64,000 bases of DNA from Marivirga lumbricoides (GTDB lineage Bacteria; Bacteroidota; Bacteroidia; Cytophagales; Cyclobacteriaceae): the NCBI RefSeq assembly GCF_014636295.1, contig NZ_BMEC01000004.1:83926-147925 (forward strand). Reading direction: 5' to 3'. Position 1 is the first letter of the stretch; every line of letters begins with the position of its first letter. This document shows, piece after piece, positions 42,001 to 51,000 of the stretch. Position numbers: made by a program.

Positions 42001-45000
42001 ATGCGTTTGGTTCCTTTACATTAAAAAACATGACCGACCTAAACAATATATTTCCGGATACTGTACAGATAATCCCCCTGGAAAATTGTTTTGCAGACCA
42101 TGTGGCTGAAATAAATGGGAACTTTCACTATCTGCAGTTCCCATCTGCCCCAATTACATCCACCAGCTGGTTATCCGAACCTTTATACATTGCAAGTACC
42201 GGTATGGGCTTTAACCGACCCTTCACCTCTGGAGAGGAATTTAGGCGATTAGATAAGGTTAGTAAGCAATTTGATTCCATCATTGTATTTGATAAGATTA
42301 GTCCGACTAAACTTATTAAAAACTAAACTCACTTTAATTGTAATCGAATCCATTTACGTGCAATATTTGTAGCCATATACAGCATGGTTCTATATGTACA
42401 TTAAACCTCACCATTAACTTAATTCACTCAATGAAAATACCCCACATCACAGCCCTGCTACTTCTATTGTTCTCCTGTGGAAAGAATGAAAACAAGACTG
42501 ATAAAAAGAATGATAAAGTAGCTGTTGCGGAAATAGTAATACCCGAATTCCAATCAATTATAGACTCTGCAGCAGTGCAGGGAGCCATTTTAATTTACAA
42601 CAAGGCTACCAATACCTACTATTCAAATGATTTTCGCTGGGCAAATAAGGGGCATTTGCCTGCTTCTACTTTCAAAATAGCCAACTCCATTATAGCACTT
42701 GAAACAGGAATAGTGGAGAACGACAGTACACTTTTCGAGTGGGGTGGTGAGGAGCGAGCAATGGAAAGTTGGGAGCAGGACTTAGTATTCAGAGAGGCTT
42801 TTCACTTTTCCTGTGTACCTTGTTACCAGGAGGTAGCAAGAGAAATTGGTGTAGAGAAGATGAATTTCTATCTGGATACACTGAATTATGGTAATATGCA
42901 GGTAGATTCCACCAATATTGACACGTTCTGGCTGGAAGGAGCCTCCCACATCACACAGTTTCAGCAAATAGACTTTCTCAAGCGCTTATATCAAACGGAA
43001 CTGCCAATTTCGGAACGAACGGAAAAGATCATAAAAAAAATGATGGTGATAGAAGCGAACGACCAATTCCAATTGAGTGGAAAAACAGGCTGGTCTAACA
43101 GCAATGGACATAATAATGGTTGGTTTGTAGGGTATTTAGAAAGCAACAACAATACCTACTTCTTCGCCACCAACCTTGAGCCTCAGCCACAATTTGATAT
43201 GTCTGGCTTTGCTGAGATCAGGAAAGAATTGACAATGCAGGCATTTAAGCAGATGGATATTATTGATTGAAATTATCAATTGAGCGGTCCTGATTTATCT
43301 TCATCGAAGATAATCCCTTTAAATATCTGGGAGCAATTATTTTCAAGGAGCTAATGGTTTTAACCTTGAAAGATTGAAAATATAGCAAGGATTTGCACGA
43401 GATTCCTCAACTCTATTTTTGAGCTGTATCGACCCATAGGGAAAGGAGGTAAAAAATTTATCGGAGATTAATAGGGGGAGTTAAGAAGAAGGGAAAGATT
43501 TGTTGCTTGCGAATCAGGAGCCTGCCAACTCTTTGGCTGGGCGAGTTTCCACCGCCATGTTTCGTGTCTCACGAAACAGATAAACGCAAATGCCTGCATA
43601 TAACGCAAATTTGACATATGATTAGTGTATCATAAGAACTCAATCCCCAGGCTGGCAGGCTATCCCGTCAATCTCAATTTGATAATGATATGATAAATAG
43701 TAATTTGTGAAATAAATGTAGCTGCTTACGAGATTTCTCCCCTCTATTTTTTAGAGAGAGGGGAAAATTTATCGGAGATAAATAGGGGTGAGTTAAGAAC
43801 TGTCGAAGACGAATCCTGAGCCTGACAGCCCTTCGGCTGGGTGAGTTTTAGAAATGAAGAAGTTTGGCGCAAAAAAGAACAATCTTACTAGCAAGAGAAT
43901 TAAGGAAGGCCTCTACAGAAGCTGAGAATAAACTATGGAAGTATTTACGAGGTAGAAAGTTCAATCAACTTAAATTTTTAAGGCAGCATCCAATTATTTA
44001 TGGTGGAAATACTGCCAGGGAAGATTTTTTCATAGCTGACTTTTATTGTCATGAAAAGAAATTAGTAATAGAGTTGGATGGAGGTATTCATAATGATGAA
44101 AAGCAATATGACAAAGGAAGAGATCAGATTTTAAATGAACTCGGAATTTATGTGTTGAGAATGGAAAATAGCATCATGGAAACTCCGGATCAAGCTTTAG
44201 AAAAAATTAAGGAATTTATACGTTCAAAAGGTTTATAAGTGATTTTGTAGGATCAGCACTGGGCCGGATATAGTGAAAAGATAATAATAATTACCTCAGA
44301 TGAGAACTCATCCCGTCAACCGCCAACTGGCGGTCGCCACCCTTCTCTTCAAAAAGAGAAGGGAATAGTAGAAGCAATCAGCCTCAATTTAATAACGATA
44401 TGATAAATAGTAATTTGTGAAATAAATGTAGGTGCTTACGAGATTTCTCCCCTCTACTTTTTAGAGAGAGGTGAAAATTTATCGGAGATAAATAGGGGTG
44501 AGTTAAGAACTGTCGAAGACGAATCCTGAGCCTGACAGCCCTTCGGCTGGGTGAGTTTTAGAAATGAAGAAGTTTGGCGCAAAAAAGAACAATCTTACTA
44601 GCAAGAGAATTAAGGAAGGCCACTACAGAAGCTGAGAATAAACTATGGAAGTATTTGCGAGGTAGAAAGTTCAATCAACTTAAATTTTTAAGGCAGCATC
44701 CAATTATTTATGGTGGAAATACTGCCAGGGAAGATTTTTTCATAGCTGACTTTTATTGTCATGAAAAGAAATTAGTAATAGAGTTGGATGGAGGAATCCA
44801 TAAAGAACAAAAACAATATGATGAGGGAAGAGATCAGGTCTTAAATGAACTCGGAATTTATGTGTTGAGAATGGAAAATAGCATCATGGAAACTCCGGAT
44901 CAAGCTTTAGAAAAAATTAAGGAATTTATACGTTCAAAAGGTTTATAAGTGATTTTGTAGGATCAGCACTGGGCCGGATATAGTGAAAAGATAATAATAA

Positions 45001-48000: not shown

Positions 48001-51000
48001 ATTAAAACAAGAACTTCAAATAGAAGTCAATTATATGGTATTGATAACTCTTATCAAGATAGTTTTTTGGTGGACAAAGACTTTGATAATTTAACAATTG
48101 TGCCAGGTCATTTATTAAATCCTTTTTATTACACAATTGAGCAACTTAATGATACTTTGATAATTCGAAATGAAAAAGATAATAGATCAGAAACATTTTA
48201 CAAAATAGAATATTAAAAGAATTACGGGTGAAGTAACTGATCACTGGCAGCGGGATGAAGTGAAATGTGTACATAGAGGACAATTCCACCACCATGTTTC
48301 GTGTCTCACGAAACAGATAAACGCAAATACCTGCGTATAATGTAAATTTGACATATGATTAGTTGGTATAAATAAACTCCAGCCAAAGGCTGGCAGACTA
48401 TCCCGTCAATCTCTATTTGATAACGATATGATAAATACTAATTTGTGCATTAAATTTAGATGCTTACGAGATTTCTCCCCTCTATTTTTTAGAGAGAGGG
48501 GAAAATTTATCGGAGATAAATAGGGGTGAGTTAAGAACTGTCGAAGACTAATCCAGAGTCCGCCTAATCTTTAGCTCCCATCTTTTTTCTATTAAATCTC
48601 ATATTAAGAAAAGCAAAAGCCTTCAAAACCGAAAATTAAGTGTGATTGATATGATTTTTATACCCAATTAAAATATGCGCATACCGCTTTTGGGAAAAAG
48701 TTATGTGTGGTTAAAAATTTTACTCACGCATATCAAATTTTACCAGTGCGCATATATGCGTGCTGTAAAGGCATTATTAAGAAAGGCTTCTTGATATATA
48801 AAGTGTGACGCTCTGAAATCTATTTTCCGAACCTCAATTCACTTGCTCTTCTATCAATAGCTCTATTTTATAATTTATCCACTATATTTATTCCTCAAGT
48901 TTACAGTTAACCATCAGTATTAAATAATCAATTTACAGACTTTTGTTGGTTCACTTGAATTCGATAGCGGAAATATGGTAAATGAACTATCCAAATATCC
49001 ATTATCCTAGGATTATAATAACTTGAGTCTTGTGATTGAATTATATAGCTGCTTAAATAATTGAAGAAAACCGAAAAAATTCTGATACTCATCTGGATAG
49101 CTTTTTTTCTGCTCATGGGAGTAGATTATCCCGGTAGCTATTTGTTTTTTGCACTATCAACTTTTGCACTAAGTTTTTATTATATTATAGCTTCTTTCAA
49201 GCTTTTTAAATCAGAAAACAACTCCTCAATTATAATTCCGATTCTTGCGGGTTTATCCTTATCAACTTCGCTTGTCACGATACCATTTAATATTTTATTG
49301 CGCAACTGGGAATGGCTTAAAGTATTACCTTTAATTAATATCATATTTACGGCATGTCTAGTTAGTTGGGTAATTTTTAAGTGGATCGGTAAAACTCAAA
49401 TTCAAGAAAATTATAGACAAATTCTCCTACGTACCACTGTAGTTTTACTGATTGCTTCTTTCTTTGCTTTCCGGCCAGTAGAGAGTAAAGTTTACAGAAA
49501 GGTGGTAATTTATCTTAATGCAAGAAATCAGGACATGATCAATAATATGCGAATGTTTGACTACTGGCAGCAATCAGAAGAACAATTAGGTAAAGGGAAT
49601 TGCGAAAAAGCTATAGAGTATTCTCTTCAATCTTTCCAGGAAGGATTAAAATGGCTTTGGATAGAAGGTGACTCTTTAACAGAGAAGGATATAAAACAGA
49701 TCTGGAAGATTCATGGTGCTTATACTAATATTTATAAAGCTTACGTATGTAAAGCTGATAAATTATATGATTCCAAGAATTATGAAGAAGCACTCCTATA
49801 TCGAATAAAAGCTGATTCCTTTTTAAATATCAACCCTGTGGCCTTAAATGATTCATGGAAGGTGGAAAGGGCAGACTCAAAAAACAGTATCGGAATTTAT
49901 TATAAAGCTTTGGGGCAAACAGATTCGACTATATTATTTTTTGCAAAAGCCATTGTTTATCATTCCGACAGTATAAGTATTTCTAATGATAGACTTGCAA
50001 CCTATTTAACTAACTTGTCAGAATCTTTAGCTGATGGCCGCTATTGGAATGAGTCAAATCAAGCTGCAAAGACGAGTATTGATGTGCTGAATACGGATTC
50101 TATCACAAAAGAAAAAAATGATCTGTATTCAACCGCCTACTTTCAACTTGTTTATAACGCTCTTGCAAATAGTGACCTGTCACAAGCAAACAAGTACTTG
50201 TCGGAGGTTAAGCAATTTTTAACCCCTAAGGGGGAATGTAAATACTACCTCTTTCACTCACTTCTCTCTAATAGATTAGATAATCCTATTGAGGCAATTG
50301 AAAATGCAAGAAAAGCCAGAGTTTGCTACCACCAGGTGTTTACTGAAAAACATCAAAACATTGCTGAAAGTTATATGGTGTCATTCGAGTCATGGATGAA
50401 GATACCGCAATACGATTCGGCAATTTCAAACCTAAGAGAAGGTATTCGAATAACCAGAATGAATCATGGAATAGCGACTGTGAGATTTCAGGACTATATA
50501 AAAAGAGAAGGGTTTTATGATTATTCAGTCGGTAATTATAAACAATCTTTAGAAAAGCTTCTGAAGGTGAAGAAGACTTATGAACGGGAGCTTGGTCAAG
50601 AGAGTGAAAAACTGCCCGAAGTCTTAGCAACCATTGGTAGAGTTAAAATAGAGCAAGAAGACTTTGTTGAAGCTAAGAAAGTTCTAACTGAAGCCTTAAG
50701 AATCTTAAAAACACATCCTTTTCTTATTGATGAAAGATCATCTAACTTATTAAATGACCTCGCATATATAAGTTATGCAACCAATCAGAGTTACGTTGCA
50801 GACACCCTTTACAATAAATCAATTAAATTAAACAATGAGGTTAAAAAAGATTCTAGTTTGTCAGTTGCCAGTGCTTTAAATGGACTAGGTCTTATTGCTA
50901 TGAAAAATTCTAATTTTTCTCGGGCTGATTCGTTATTCAAAAAATCTCTTCAACTTTATAAATTTCATTACCCAGAACTGCATCCAGATATAGGAATTGT

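What the first reader, a model, noticed from the sequence alone, without database searches (positions are those of the whole stretch)
43440..48560. Composite ~300-bp repeat C in five copies, with conserved hairpins, concentrated in this island
Each copy contains the inverted repeat gtttcgtgtctcacgaaac. Each also contains a strong hairpin, tcccctct-N11-agagggga, embedded in gagatttctcccctctattttttagagagaggggaaaatttatcggagataaataggggtgagttaag. Finally each carries a tail, gcctgacagcccttcggctggg, that itself contains ccagcc…ggctgg-type stems. Copies occur whole (43549-43860, 48287-48560) or in part (43440-43545, 44375-44570, 45085-45262), always in the same orientation. This points to a MITE or REP-like mobile element, or to a structured small-RNA gene family that seeds rearrangements. 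It marks the 41-53 kb region as an accessory or recombination hotspot.
Basis: seen in the sequence. Interest (0 to 1): 0.55.

Follow-up and report, generated by a model that had tools for sequence, protein, structure and literature searches.

The report
Palindromic intergenic repeat family in Marivirga
The five repeats are real: they are copies of a previously undescribed, roughly 200-base hairpin-rich palindromic DNA element that sits between accessory genes at one variable spot of Marivirga genomes and has multiplied there by local duplication, an ordinary kind of bacterial intergenic repeat rather than a new mechanism.

Summary
The five same-orientation copies exist at the stated coordinates (blastn E 1e-10 to 1e-108). 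The description is only partly right. The GTTTCGTG...CACGAAAC palindrome is in 2 of 5 copies. The exact tail is in 3 of 5. Copies c1-c3 are not independent: they lie in 2.2 tandem copies of a 710-bp unit that also carries a DUF559 gene.

The window is Marivirga lumbricoides. Three other Marivirga genomes carry the same modules at the orthologous spot, between a sigma-54 response regulator and DUF559/GNAT/OXA genes. The M. tractuosa clade and one further relative (L002) lack them.

The basic unit is about 200 bp. It is an inverted pair of ~70-nt arms around an AT-rich spacer. Each arm has a pyrimidine/purine hairpin, a variable second hairpin and a terminal box GGG(G/A)TGAGTT. A 20-nt REP-like hairpin is nested in either orientation.

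Hairpins show a few compensatory changes. The H2 arm is 79% conserved across species against 56% for the spacer. There is no Rfam match, no target-site duplication, no transposase or integrase in the window, and no copy outside the hotspot.

Best reading: a REPIN/BIME/MITE-like palindromic repeat family that amplifies locally and serves as a recombination substrate. New member of a known kind; modest interest.

The parts
43397..43548 (+). c0: two decayed tandem H2-type arms. The first is 43397-43487 (hairpin 1 disrupted by an insertion; hairpin 2 ATTTATC-GGA-GATTAAT). The second is 43488-43548 and carries the REP-like hairpin AGCCTGCCAACTCTTTGGCTGG at 43519-43540.
   Evidence: blastn 72% to c1; alignment A1; H2 covariance model 39 bits, E 3e-9; alignment A5; regex.
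43547..43636 (+). 5' segment found only in c1 and c4. It contains the perfect palindrome TGTTTCGTG-TCT-CACGAAACA (43558-43578). It has no counterpart in the related genomes. Possible operator or hairpin; function unknown.
   Evidence: D6, I20; no hit in any locus.
43637..43671 (+). Left terminus of the c1 unit: AACTCA, then a decayed REP-like hairpin in reverse orientation (43643-43661), then ATCCCGTCAA. The two H1 hairpins present in c2 and c3 are missing here (62-nt deletion).
   Evidence: Read from the sequence; comparison with c2, c4 and L007.
43672..43727 (+). AT-rich spacer of c1. It holds a near-consensus Bacteroidota promoter-like string TTTG-N19-TAATTTG, which is not conserved in relatives.
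43728..43795 (+). H2 arm of c1. Hairpin 1 is CTCCCCTCT...AGAGGGGA (43737-43764). Hairpin 2 is ATTTATC-GGA-GATAAAT (43767-43783). The terminal box is AGGGGTGAGTTA (43784-43795).
   Evidence: Model R1 94.6 bits; pair counts 97.9% paired with 2 compensatory pairs.
43796..43847 (+). It has hairpin 2b ACTGTC-GAA-GACGAAT (43799-43814), the inserted 22-nt REP-like hairpin AGCCTGACAGCCCTTCGGCTGG (43819-43840), and a repeated terminal box GTGAGTT (43841-43847).
   Evidence: Alignment A5; the same architecture occurs in L007 1444-1510; weak terminator-like call.
43673..45261 (+). 2.24 tandem copies of a 710-bp unit made of spacer, H2, tail, DUF559 gene and H1. This accounts for c1 (3' part), c2 and c3.
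   Evidence: Self-blastn: 879 nt at 96.9%; D1 spacing 710, 710.
43864..44238 (+). DUF559 (Vsr-like PD-(D/E)XK endonuclease) gene, copy 1, embedded between repeat units.
   Evidence: Pfam PF04480 E 1e-28; orthologues sit between units in L004 and L007.
44302..44378 (+). H1 arm of c2, the inverted relative of H2. It runs AACTCATCCCG, hairpin CCGCC-AACT-GGCGG, hairpin CCCTTCTCTT-CAAA-AAGAGAAGGG (44340-44363), GAATAGTAG.
   Evidence: Model R2 72.8 bits; R1 hits it on the minus strand; alignment A3; fold z -3.5 on + and -4.2 on -.
44379..44557 (+). c2: AT spacer, H2 arm (44438-44505; one G-to-T mismatch in hairpin 1) and tail with REP-like hairpin (44529-44550).
44574..44948 (+). DUF559 gene, copy 2 (tandem duplicate).
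45012..45261 (+). c3: H1 arm (45012-45088), AT spacer, H2 arm (45148-45215) and tail with REP-like hairpin (45239-45260). It ends about 80 nt upstream of the conserved GNAT coding start.
48284..48558 (+). c4, a direct repeat of c1 (91%) lying 4.7 kb downstream. It has the 5' segment with the palindrome (48295-48315), the left terminus AAACTC plus the intact 20-nt REP-like hairpin CAGCCAAAGGCTGGCAGACT (48380-48399), an AT spacer, the H2 arm (48466-48533) and a tail remnant.
51328..51383 (+). Degenerate H1-like remnant: AACTCATC..CGACC, then hairpin CTTCCTTC...GAAGGAGG, then AATCC. It lies downstream of the TPR gene. A terminator-like hairpin follows, then the second copy of the 48574-48890 repeat. 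Weak; found by eye.
   Evidence: Sequence; alignment A6; below the R2 threshold.

Best explanation
Repeat C is a member of a lineage-restricted family of composite palindromic intergenic repeats in Marivirga, comparable to REPIN, BIME, BOX or Correia-type elements.

Anatomy (shown). The full unit is about 200 bp. It has two related ~70-nt arms in inverted orientation, H1 on the left and H2 on the right, around a ~55-nt AT-rich spacer. Each arm has three parts: a pyrimidine-arm/purine-arm hairpin, a second hairpin whose sequence is free but whose pairing is kept, and a terminal box. The terminal boxes are AACTCATCCC and GGGGTGAGTT, so the ends pair. A separate 20-nt REP-like hairpin (AGYCTGNCAGCC-N3-GGCTG) is nested in the termini in either orientation.

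Propagation (shown for its products, inferred for its cause). The family sits at one hypervariable locus. It spreads there by unequal or homologous recombination and tandem duplication together with neighbouring cassettes, not by transposition around the genome. Visible products are:
- the 710-bp duplication that carries DUF559;
- the c1/c4 direct repeats that bracket a 4.4-kb gene block;
- nested partial arms;
- the presence or absence of DUF559 between units in relatives.

Function (inferred). The genes are co-directional with no strong terminators between them, so the units are probably co-transcribed. They would then fold into stable plus-strand stem-loops that can buffer or segment mRNA decay, as REP/BIME elements do. 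At the DNA level they supply homology for cassette gain, loss and duplication.
For: - Copies and their statistics.
- Tandem duplication and direct repeats.
- Organism identified as M. lumbricoides.
- The same modules lie at the syntenic site in L003 (M. aurantiaca), L004 and L007.
- H1 is the reverse-complement relative of H2. The H2 model hits H1 on the minus strand at E 1e-5 to 2e-2, and alignment A3 shows the shared layout.
- RNAalifold on five full units gives a 10-bp terminal stem plus four local hairpins, with 6 pairs changed on both sides.
- Pair counts on H2: 97.9% paired against 48-64% for slid controls, with compensatory CG/UA and AU/GC pairs.
- The H1 arm folds much better than shuffles, z -3.2 to -4.3.
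- The second hairpin of H1 has three unrelated sequences that all pair: CCGCC/GGCGG, TTCCGC/GCGGAA and CCACC/GGTG.
- Cross-species identity is 79% for H2, 67% for H1 and 56% for the spacer, against 73-82% for flanking genes.
- The 20-nt hairpin is a clean insertion in both orientations.
- The same hairpin type occurs in an unrelated intergenic region at 3742-3756.
- No Rfam family matches.
- No transposase or integrase is in the window.
Against: - Whole-genome copy number could not be measured. The source genome could not be fetched, so 'local only' rests on 64 kb here plus about 50 kb around the orthologous sites.
- Arm conservation equal to or above that of coding DNA suggests a selected function that this explanation only guesses at.
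- The RNA-level role is not demonstrated. The H2 arm of the window does not fold significantly better than shuffles (z -1.1), and neither does the whole leader (z -0.7).
- Covariation rests on four genomes and few independent events.
- All units keep the same polarity relative to the genes in all four genomes. A pure selfish-DNA model does not require that.
Confidence: 0.5

Rival explanations
1. Promoter-plus-leader cassette or small-RNA gene. The AT spacer holds a Bacteroidota promoter, and the H2 arm (two hairpins), the tail hairpin and a U-run form a ~130-nt structured 5' leader or sRNA. This RNA regulates or stabilises the downstream DUF559 and GNAT messages.
For: - The window copies carry TTTG-N19-TAATTTG in the spacer.
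- The tail hairpin followed by GGTGAGTTTT is called terminator-like.
- Units always lie upstream of, and co-oriented with, DUF559 or GNAT in four genomes.
- Hairpin variants are mostly G.U on the plus strand: 9 pairs with G.U against 4 with C.A.
- H2 is more conserved than the spacer.
Against: - The strict promoter pattern TTTG-N18-21-TANNTTTG does not match c1-c4, and it is no more frequent in the window than chance.
- The promoter-like spacing is absent in L004 and L007.
- There is no conserved U-tract terminator in relatives.
- The distance from H2 to the next start codon varies from about 30 to about 250 nt, with unrelated inserts or an extra H1 between.
- GNAT keeps its own conserved proximal upstream motif.
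- c4 is not followed by a gene for about 500 nt.
- No Rfam match; fold z-scores are modest.
Confidence: 0.2
2. Active non-autonomous transposable element (MITE). The unit is mobilised in trans by a transposase encoded elsewhere in the genome. The hotspot copies are insertions.
For: - About 200 bp, non-coding, with terminal inverted repeats AACTCATCCC/GGGGTGAGTT and long sub-terminal inverted arms.
- Patchy distribution among Marivirga genomes: present in 4, absent from L002 and L008-L016.
- The nested 20-nt hairpin behaves like an inserted REP.
Against: - No direct repeats flank any of six inspected units (read).
- Every copy in four genomes is at the same syntenic locus, and none elsewhere in about 210 kb.
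- Copies are in tandem with fixed periods, 710 bp here and about 283 bp in L004, which indicates duplication rather than insertion.
- No transposase, RAYT or integrase is in the window.
- The exact core is absent from 185,579 species genomes and from the plasmid, phage, viral and metagenome collections.
Confidence: 0.12
3. Invertible promoter (inverton). The inverted arms are recombinase sites. Flipping the ~55-nt spacer, or the whole unit, switches expression of the downstream resistance-like genes.
For: - The element is about 200 bp, bounded by inverted repeats around an AT-rich, promoter-like spacer.
- It lies upstream of GNAT/OXA-type genes in a Bacteroidota genome. The general precedent for invertons in Bacteroidota is from my own knowledge.
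Against: - All 8 full or partial units in 4 genomes have the same polarity, and the spacers align in the same orientation.
- The arms are only about 57% identical, with a 9/10 match limited to the last 10 nt.
- No invertase is in the 64 kb.
- The promoter is not conserved.
Confidence: 0.06
4. attC-like recombination sites of an integron-like cassette array. Co-directional accessory genes (esterase, OXA, DUF559, GNAT, hydrolase) are captured at folded hairpin sites.
For: - Co-directional, resistance-like and unrelated genes are separated by imperfect palindromes.
- The locus content differs between relatives.
Against: - No integron integrase or any tyrosine recombinase is nearby.
- The termini do not fit the RYYYAAC/GTTRRRY boxes; the right ends read GTTATAG, GTTAAGA, GTTAATC.
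- Units are about 200 bp, not 57-141 bp.
- Several gene junctions in the array (41-42.4 kb, 45.8-46.1 kb, 47.6-47.8 kb) have no repeat.
Confidence: 0.03

Closest known systems
REP / REPIN and BIME elements of gamma-proteobacteria (comparison from my own knowledge of the literature)
   Same: - Short imperfect palindromes occur as inverted doublets.
- Modules combine in mosaic fashion, with variable numbers of them.
- They lie in intergenic spaces of co-directional operons.
- The nested 20-22-nt GC-rich hairpin here is of REP size and occurs in both orientations, plus once in an unrelated arg-operon spacer.
   Different: - The arms here are about 70 nt with two hairpins each, and the whole unit is about 200 bp.
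- Copies are confined to one locus as far as could be seen, not hundreds dispersed.
- No RAYT transposase was seen.
- The host is a Cytophagales bacterium.
Correia elements (NEMIS) of Neisseria and ERIC/IRU of enterobacteria (own knowledge)
   Same: They are 100-200-bp non-coding elements bounded by inverted repeats, with a less conserved centre. They are co-transcribed with neighbouring genes and able to fold as long hairpins. Some carry promoter-like strings.
   Different: Correia elements have a TA target duplication, 26-nt perfect-ish inverted repeats and hundreds of dispersed copies. Here no duplication is seen, the arms are long and diverged, and amplification is in local tandem.
BOX elements of Streptococcus pneumoniae (own knowledge)
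   Same: Modular build from a few sub-units that can be present, absent or repeated. Stable predicted stem-loops. Intergenic location.
   Different: No sequence relationship. BOX elements are dispersed with more than 100 copies.
Integron attC sites
   Same: Imperfect palindromes between co-directional accessory cassettes.
   Different: The defining boxes, the size range and the integrase are all absent (see the membership test).

Membership tests
MITE | Terminal inverted repeats | tested here: met
   AACTCATCCC and GGGGTGAGTT pair at 10 of 10 positions with one G.U. The whole arms are inverted relatives.
MITE | Target-site duplication flanking each copy | tested here: not met
   The flanks of six units in the window, L003, L004 and L007 show no direct repeat. 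Left flanks end ..aca..aaa..gag..att; right flanks start ata, aag, aat.
MITE | Many copies dispersed at unrelated loci | tested here: inconclusive
   No copy lies outside the hotspot in 64 kb of window plus flanks of three related loci. The exact core is absent from the genome collection. The complete source genome could not be searched.
MITE | Autonomous partner element with the same ends | not testable with these tools
   No transposase is in the window. The rest of the genome was not available.
REP/REPIN | 20-40-nt imperfect palindrome, often as inverted doublets | tested here: met
   The 20-22-nt hairpin AGYCTGNCAGCC-N3/4-GGCTGG occurs forward at 43519, 43819, 44529 and 45239, and reversed at 43643 and 48380. 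It is also in L007, and at 3742-3756 next to a second hairpin.
REP/REPIN | High genome-wide copy number and an associated RAYT gene | not testable with these tools
   Only 64 kb of the genome is available, and no Y1 transposase is in it.
Any Rfam RNA family | Score at or near the family's gathering threshold | tested here: not met
   At gathering thresholds the only hit in the window is RNase P at 12349-12777. The E-value scan of 43200-48700 gave only four chance-level hits, E 1.8-4.9, none on the repeat.
Integron attC | R''/R' boxes RYYYAAC...GTTRRRY, 57-141 nt, integron integrase nearby | tested here: not met
   The termini do not fit, units are about 200 bp, and no integrase is present.
Inverton (invertible promoter) | Both orientations observed; promoter inside; invertase | tested here: not met
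   There is a single polarity in 8 units of 4 genomes. The strict promoter pattern is absent from c1-c4. No recombinase is in the window. Read-level data are not available.
Intrinsic terminator | GC-rich hairpin followed by a U-tract | tested here: inconclusive
   The tail hairpin CAGCC-CTTC-GGCTG followed by GGTGAGTTTT is called in c1 and c2 only, and the total number of calls is not above shuffles. No U-tract is present in relatives.

The most novel reading that the evidence does not exclude
The ~70-nt two-hairpin arm could be a functional, selected site rather than junk. It might be a structured plus-strand RNA module, or a folded-DNA recognition site used with the embedded DUF559 (Vsr-like) endonuclease. 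In that reading it drives cassette duplication, capture and loss at a dedicated hotspot in Cytophagales, making an integrase-free, nuclease-assisted analogue of an integron array. Three observations are what keep this reading open: arm conservation at or above coding level, the DUF559 gene sitting inside the array in three of the four unit-bearing genomes, and structure-preserving turnover of the second hairpin.
Probability: 0.07. Interest if true: 0.75.

Novelty: new member of a known kind. Interest (0 to 1): 0.3.

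Why it matters
It adds an uncatalogued repeat family to a phylum, Bacteroidota (order Cytophagales), in which REP/MITE-type intergenic elements are poorly described. It shows in one locus how such palindromic units produce tandem gene duplication (DUF559 x2), direct repeats that bracket a 4.4-kb accessory block, and gene-order changes around a class D beta-lactamase / GNAT / esterase cluster.

For annotation, it explains otherwise puzzling conserved non-coding sequence, and it gives covariance models (R1, R2) that could be run on complete Marivirga genomes. 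If the arms prove to be selected RNA or recombination sites, the locus would be a tractable model of cassette turnover without an integrase. The present evidence does not require that.

Tried and rejected
- Rfam at gathering and permissive thresholds: nothing on the repeat. tRNA/tmRNA scan: none.
- Exact-core scans of public collections gave only coincidental hits or nothing: 185,579 species genomes (one Pacearchaeota match), viral contigs (none), JGI metagenomes with a generalised H2 pattern (one match inside a transketolase-like ORF).
- blastn against plasmids and phages: no match.
Genome-wide copy number stays unknown.
- Sigma-54 promoter scan: no site in the units, and counts are at chance. 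A link to the adjacent sigma-54 response regulator is not supported.
- Strict Bacteroidota promoter pattern: one match in the window, in c0, at chance level. The sigma-70 and terminator scans are not above shuffles.
- M. tractuosa-clade loci, where the orthologous GNAT lies elsewhere, and the closest OXA relative L002: no units by blastn or by either covariance model.
- A CsrA-type GGA loop in hairpin 2 was considered and rejected, because the loop is GCA, TCA or GAA in relatives.
- Alternative pairing of the hairpin-1 5' arm with AGGGGTGAG (a switch) was considered and rejected, because L003 has AGCGG there.
- attC and inverton readings failed their defining features (see the membership test).
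- Literature searches for Marivirga repeats and for DUF559 gave nothing relevant.

Full report
**Observation.** The region was read directly and compared with itself and with the whole window.

blastn with the c1 copy (43547-43860) finds four more same-strand matches:

| copy | coordinates | identity to c1 | E-value |
|---|---|---|---|
| c4 | 48284-48558 | 91% | 8e-108 |
| c2 | 44383-44570 | 97% | |
| c3 | 45093-45261 | 95% | |
| c0 | 43453-43548, plus a fragment at 43397-43420 | 72% | 1e-10 |

- Nothing else in the 64 kb rises above noise.
- A 20-nt core, TTATCGGAGATNAATAGGGG, is present in all five copies. Zero occurrences are expected in shuffles.
- So the copies, their coordinates and their common orientation are confirmed.
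- Three details of the description do not hold.
  - The palindrome GTTTCGTG-TCT-CACGAAAC is in c1 and c4 only.
  - The TCCCCTCT...AGAGGGGA hairpin is perfect in three copies, has a mismatch in c2, and is degenerate in c0.
  - The exact tail is in c1-c3. It is variant in c0, and in c4 only a remnant is left.
- The copies are also not independent. 43673-44551 and 44383-45261 are 96.9% identical over 879 nt.
  - That makes 2.24 tandem copies of a 710-bp unit that includes a complete DUF559 gene.
  - c1 and c4 are direct repeats 4.7 kb apart.

**Context.** All genes from 39.1 to 48.2 kb are on the plus strand. In order they are:

- a DOPA-dioxygenase-like gene;
- an SDR (short-chain dehydrogenase/reductase) gene;
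- an erythromycin-esterase-like gene;
- a class D beta-lactamase (42431-43270);
- two DUF559 genes;
- a GNAT acetyltransferase;
- a PAF-AH-like hydrolase;
- an unknown 145-aa ORF.

Upstream and divergent lie a sigma-54 response regulator and a histidine kinase. Downstream lie a TPR protein, a Calx-beta protein and HlyD/ABC/FtsX genes. No integrase, transposase or RAYT is encoded anywhere in the window.

The beta-lactamase and the GNAT are 100% identical to Marivirga lumbricoides proteins. The source genome itself could not be retrieved.

**Relatives.**

- Loci around orthologous OXA, DUF559 and GNAT genes were fetched.
- Three other Marivirga genomes carry clearly homologous modules at the same syntenic place.
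  - That place is just downstream of the response regulator and of a conserved palindrome, GATGTCCGATATCGGACGT (window 38794).

| locus | source | arrangement |
|---|---|---|
| L003 | M. aurantiaca S37H4 | one unit, directly upstream of GNAT-OXA |
| L004 | 4.9-Mb contig | about 2.5 units with a ~283-bp period, then DUF559, then 1.5 units, then GNAT-OXA |
| L007 | GCA_038258905.1 | a unit, DUF559, a unit, GNAT |

These are supported.

- The closest OXA relative (L002) lacks the modules by blastn and by both covariance models.
  - So do eight loci of the M. tractuosa clade, where GNAT lies elsewhere.
- The gene content between the regulator and the HlyD/ABC genes differs in every genome.

**Anatomy.** Comparing species resolves the "composite" repeat into modules.

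- *H2* (window 43728-43795 and its paralogues) has three parts:
  - a pyrimidine-arm/purine-arm hairpin, CTCCCCTCT...AGAGGGGA;
  - a 7-bp hairpin, ATTTRTC-NNN-GAYAAAT;
  - the box AGGGGTGAGTTA.
- *H1* (window 44302-44378 and 45012-45088) has four parts:
  - AACTCATCCCG;
  - a hairpin of free sequence;
  - the hairpin CCCTTCTCTT...AAGAGAAGGG;
  - GAATAG.
- A covariance model built from H2 hits H1 on the opposite strand, E 1e-5 to 2e-2.
  - Alignment A3 shows the same order of elements.
  - H1 is therefore an inverted, diverged copy of the H2-type arm.
- The full unit is an inverted pair of arms around a ~55-nt AT-rich spacer.
  - RNAalifold on five full units predicts a 10-bp terminal stem (AACTCATCCC with GGGGTGAGTT).
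  - It also predicts four local hairpins.
- c1 and c4 have lost the two H1 hairpins. Relative to c2 this is a 62-nt deletion.
  - They have instead an unrelated 5' segment with the GTTTCGTG palindrome. That segment has no counterpart in relatives.
It has three parts:
  - the hairpin ACTGTC-GAA-GACGAAT;
  - a 20-22-nt hairpin, AGCCTGNCAGCC-N3/4-GGCTGG, inserted between AGG and GGTGAGTT;
  - the terminal box again (alignment A5).
- L007 1444-1510 has the same architecture.
- The same 20-mer, reverse-complemented, sits in the left terminus of c4 (48380-48399). It is decayed in c1 and also present in L007.
- A hairpin of that type also occurs at 3742-3756, in an arg-operon spacer.
- c0 is two decayed arms in tandem.
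- A further degenerate H1-like remnant lies at 51328-51383.

**Constraint.**

- On nine H2 copies, 97.9% of cells pair, against 48-64% when the partners are slid.
  - Two pairs change on both sides: CG/UA at the inner stem of hairpin 1 and AU/GC in hairpin 2.
  - Three pairs show U.G.
- In H1, the free-sequence hairpin has three unrelated but self-complementary versions.
- Most non-Watson-Crick variants are G.U on the plus strand rather than C.A: 9 pairs against 4.
  - This weakly favours plus-strand RNA. The sample is four genomes, and the control notes of the tool warn that relatedness alone can give such numbers.
- Mean cross-species identity is 79% for H2, 67% for H1 and 56% for the spacer.
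  - Neighbouring genes are 73-82% identical at the DNA level.
  - The arms are therefore as constrained as coding sequence.
- H1 folds far better than shuffles, z -3.2 to -4.3.
  - The window's H2 arm (z -1.1) and the c1 spacer-to-tail stretch, 43710-43870 (z -0.7), do not.

**What it is not.**

- No Rfam family matches.
- No target-site duplications flank six inspected units.
- No copies lie outside the hotspot in about 210 kb examined.
- The exact core is absent from the species-genome collection. It is also absent from the viral, metagenome, plasmid and phage collections.
- No sigma-54 promoter lies in the units.
- The strict Bacteroidota promoter pattern does not match c1-c4.
  - The near-match TTTG-N19-TAATTTG seen in the window is not conserved in L004 or L007.
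- The distance from H2 to the next start codon ranges from about 30 to about 250 nt.
  - GNAT keeps its own conserved proximal upstream motif and coding start.
- The attC boxes and an integrase are absent.
- All units have one polarity.

**Interpretation.**

- The best-supported reading (confidence about 0.5) is a lineage-restricted family of palindromic intergenic repeats of the REPIN/BIME/BOX/Correia kind.
- The family persists at one hypervariable locus and amplifies there by unequal recombination together with adjacent cassettes. The duplication products are visible.
- When co-transcribed with its co-directional neighbours, it probably forms stable stem-loops. The RNA-level effect is inferred by analogy, not shown.
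- The rivals are listed with their tests:

| rival | confidence |
|---|---|
| promoter/leader or sRNA | 0.2 |
| active MITE | 0.12 |
| inverton | 0.06 |
| attC-like site | 0.03 |

- The comparisons with REP, BIME, Correia, BOX, ERIC and invertons rest on my own knowledge of those families, not on a tool result.

**Verdict.**

- The finding is real. Its description is partly inaccurate, and its interpretation is partly right.
  - Right: REP/MITE-like architecture, a hotspot, seeding of rearrangements.
  - Not demonstrated: mobility and sRNA identity.
- It is a new member of a known kind, of modest interest (0.3).
- The most novel reading not excluded is a selected recognition or RNA module working with the embedded DUF559 nuclease to turn over cassettes. 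I give it about 7%.

Noticed in passing
window 48574-48890 and 51431-51830: A second repeat pair, 76-95% identical in blocks, flanks the TPR gene (49061-51274). Each copy follows an H-type element (c4, and the remnant at 51328). The downstream copy holds three 28-nt tandem repeats with the palindromic core (T/C)GCATATATGCG (51602-51696). The upstream copy has one such palindrome (48749-48760). It looks like an operator or iteron array.
   Followed up: partly
window 1102-1378 and 3690-3830: Clusters of short GC-rich hairpins lie in intergenic spacers of the arginine-biosynthesis operon. They include CCCCCTTT-tcc-AAAGGGGG, TCCCCCTT-tatt-AAGGGGGA, CCAGCC-AAA-GGCTGG and TCAGCC-TCT-GGCTGA. This suggests that REP-like hairpins are a general feature of this genome. 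The pure pyrimidine/purine GC-rich hairpins in the window are only these two plus those of the island.
   Followed up: partly
window 38794-38832; L002 7768-7800, L003 9170-9200, L004 7676-7715, L007 311-350: The palindrome GATGTCCGATATCGGACGT, followed by ..TGGACGG, is conserved next to the divergent sigma-54 response regulator in every Marivirga locus of this type. It is probably the regulator's operator or enhancer site.
   Followed up: no
window 45281-45793: The GNAT gene is annotated in the public record as 166 aa starting at ATG 45293. All orthologues (144-155 aa) start at a conserved (T/G)TG AAA ATA AGA CCC TAC, which corresponds to TTG at about 45344. The public start is therefore probably too far upstream.
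   Followed up: partly
window 41073-43270 and 45281-47555: A cluster of resistance-like genes: an erythromycin-esterase-like gene, a class D beta-lactamase that passes the NCBIfam class D cut-off (272 against 250 bits), a GNAT and an alpha/beta hydrolase. In relatives the order is GNAT-OXA. Here OXA precedes the repeats and GNAT follows them, so gene order has been rearranged across the repeat block.
   Followed up: partly
window 12349-12777 (-): Bacterial RNase P RNA class A, 182 bits. It is the only Rfam gathering-level hit in the window.
   Followed up: yes
window 25989-34422 (-): A large DUF3686/AAA ATPase (1615 aa) is followed by two ORFs with no Pfam match (675 and 203 aa) and a PspA/IM30 gene. 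It may be a stress or defence module.
   Followed up: no
L002 8150-8330 and L007 1555-1640; also L009 about 9860-9900: Another conserved non-coding motif set, repeated TGGACA(T/A)/ATGTCCA half-sites as in 'aaaactggacatatccccattttctgtccag', lies upstream of Fic or GNAT genes in relatives that lack, or have fewer of, the repeat units. It is likely a transcription-factor operator.
   Followed up: no
window 43845-43916: A 23-codon ORF (ATG AAG AAG TTT GGC ...) starts inside the end of the repeat tail and overlaps the TTG start of each DUF559 copy in another frame. It is probably fortuitous. It is absent in L004 and L007, where DUF559 has about 200 nt of unrelated upstream sequence.
   Followed up: no
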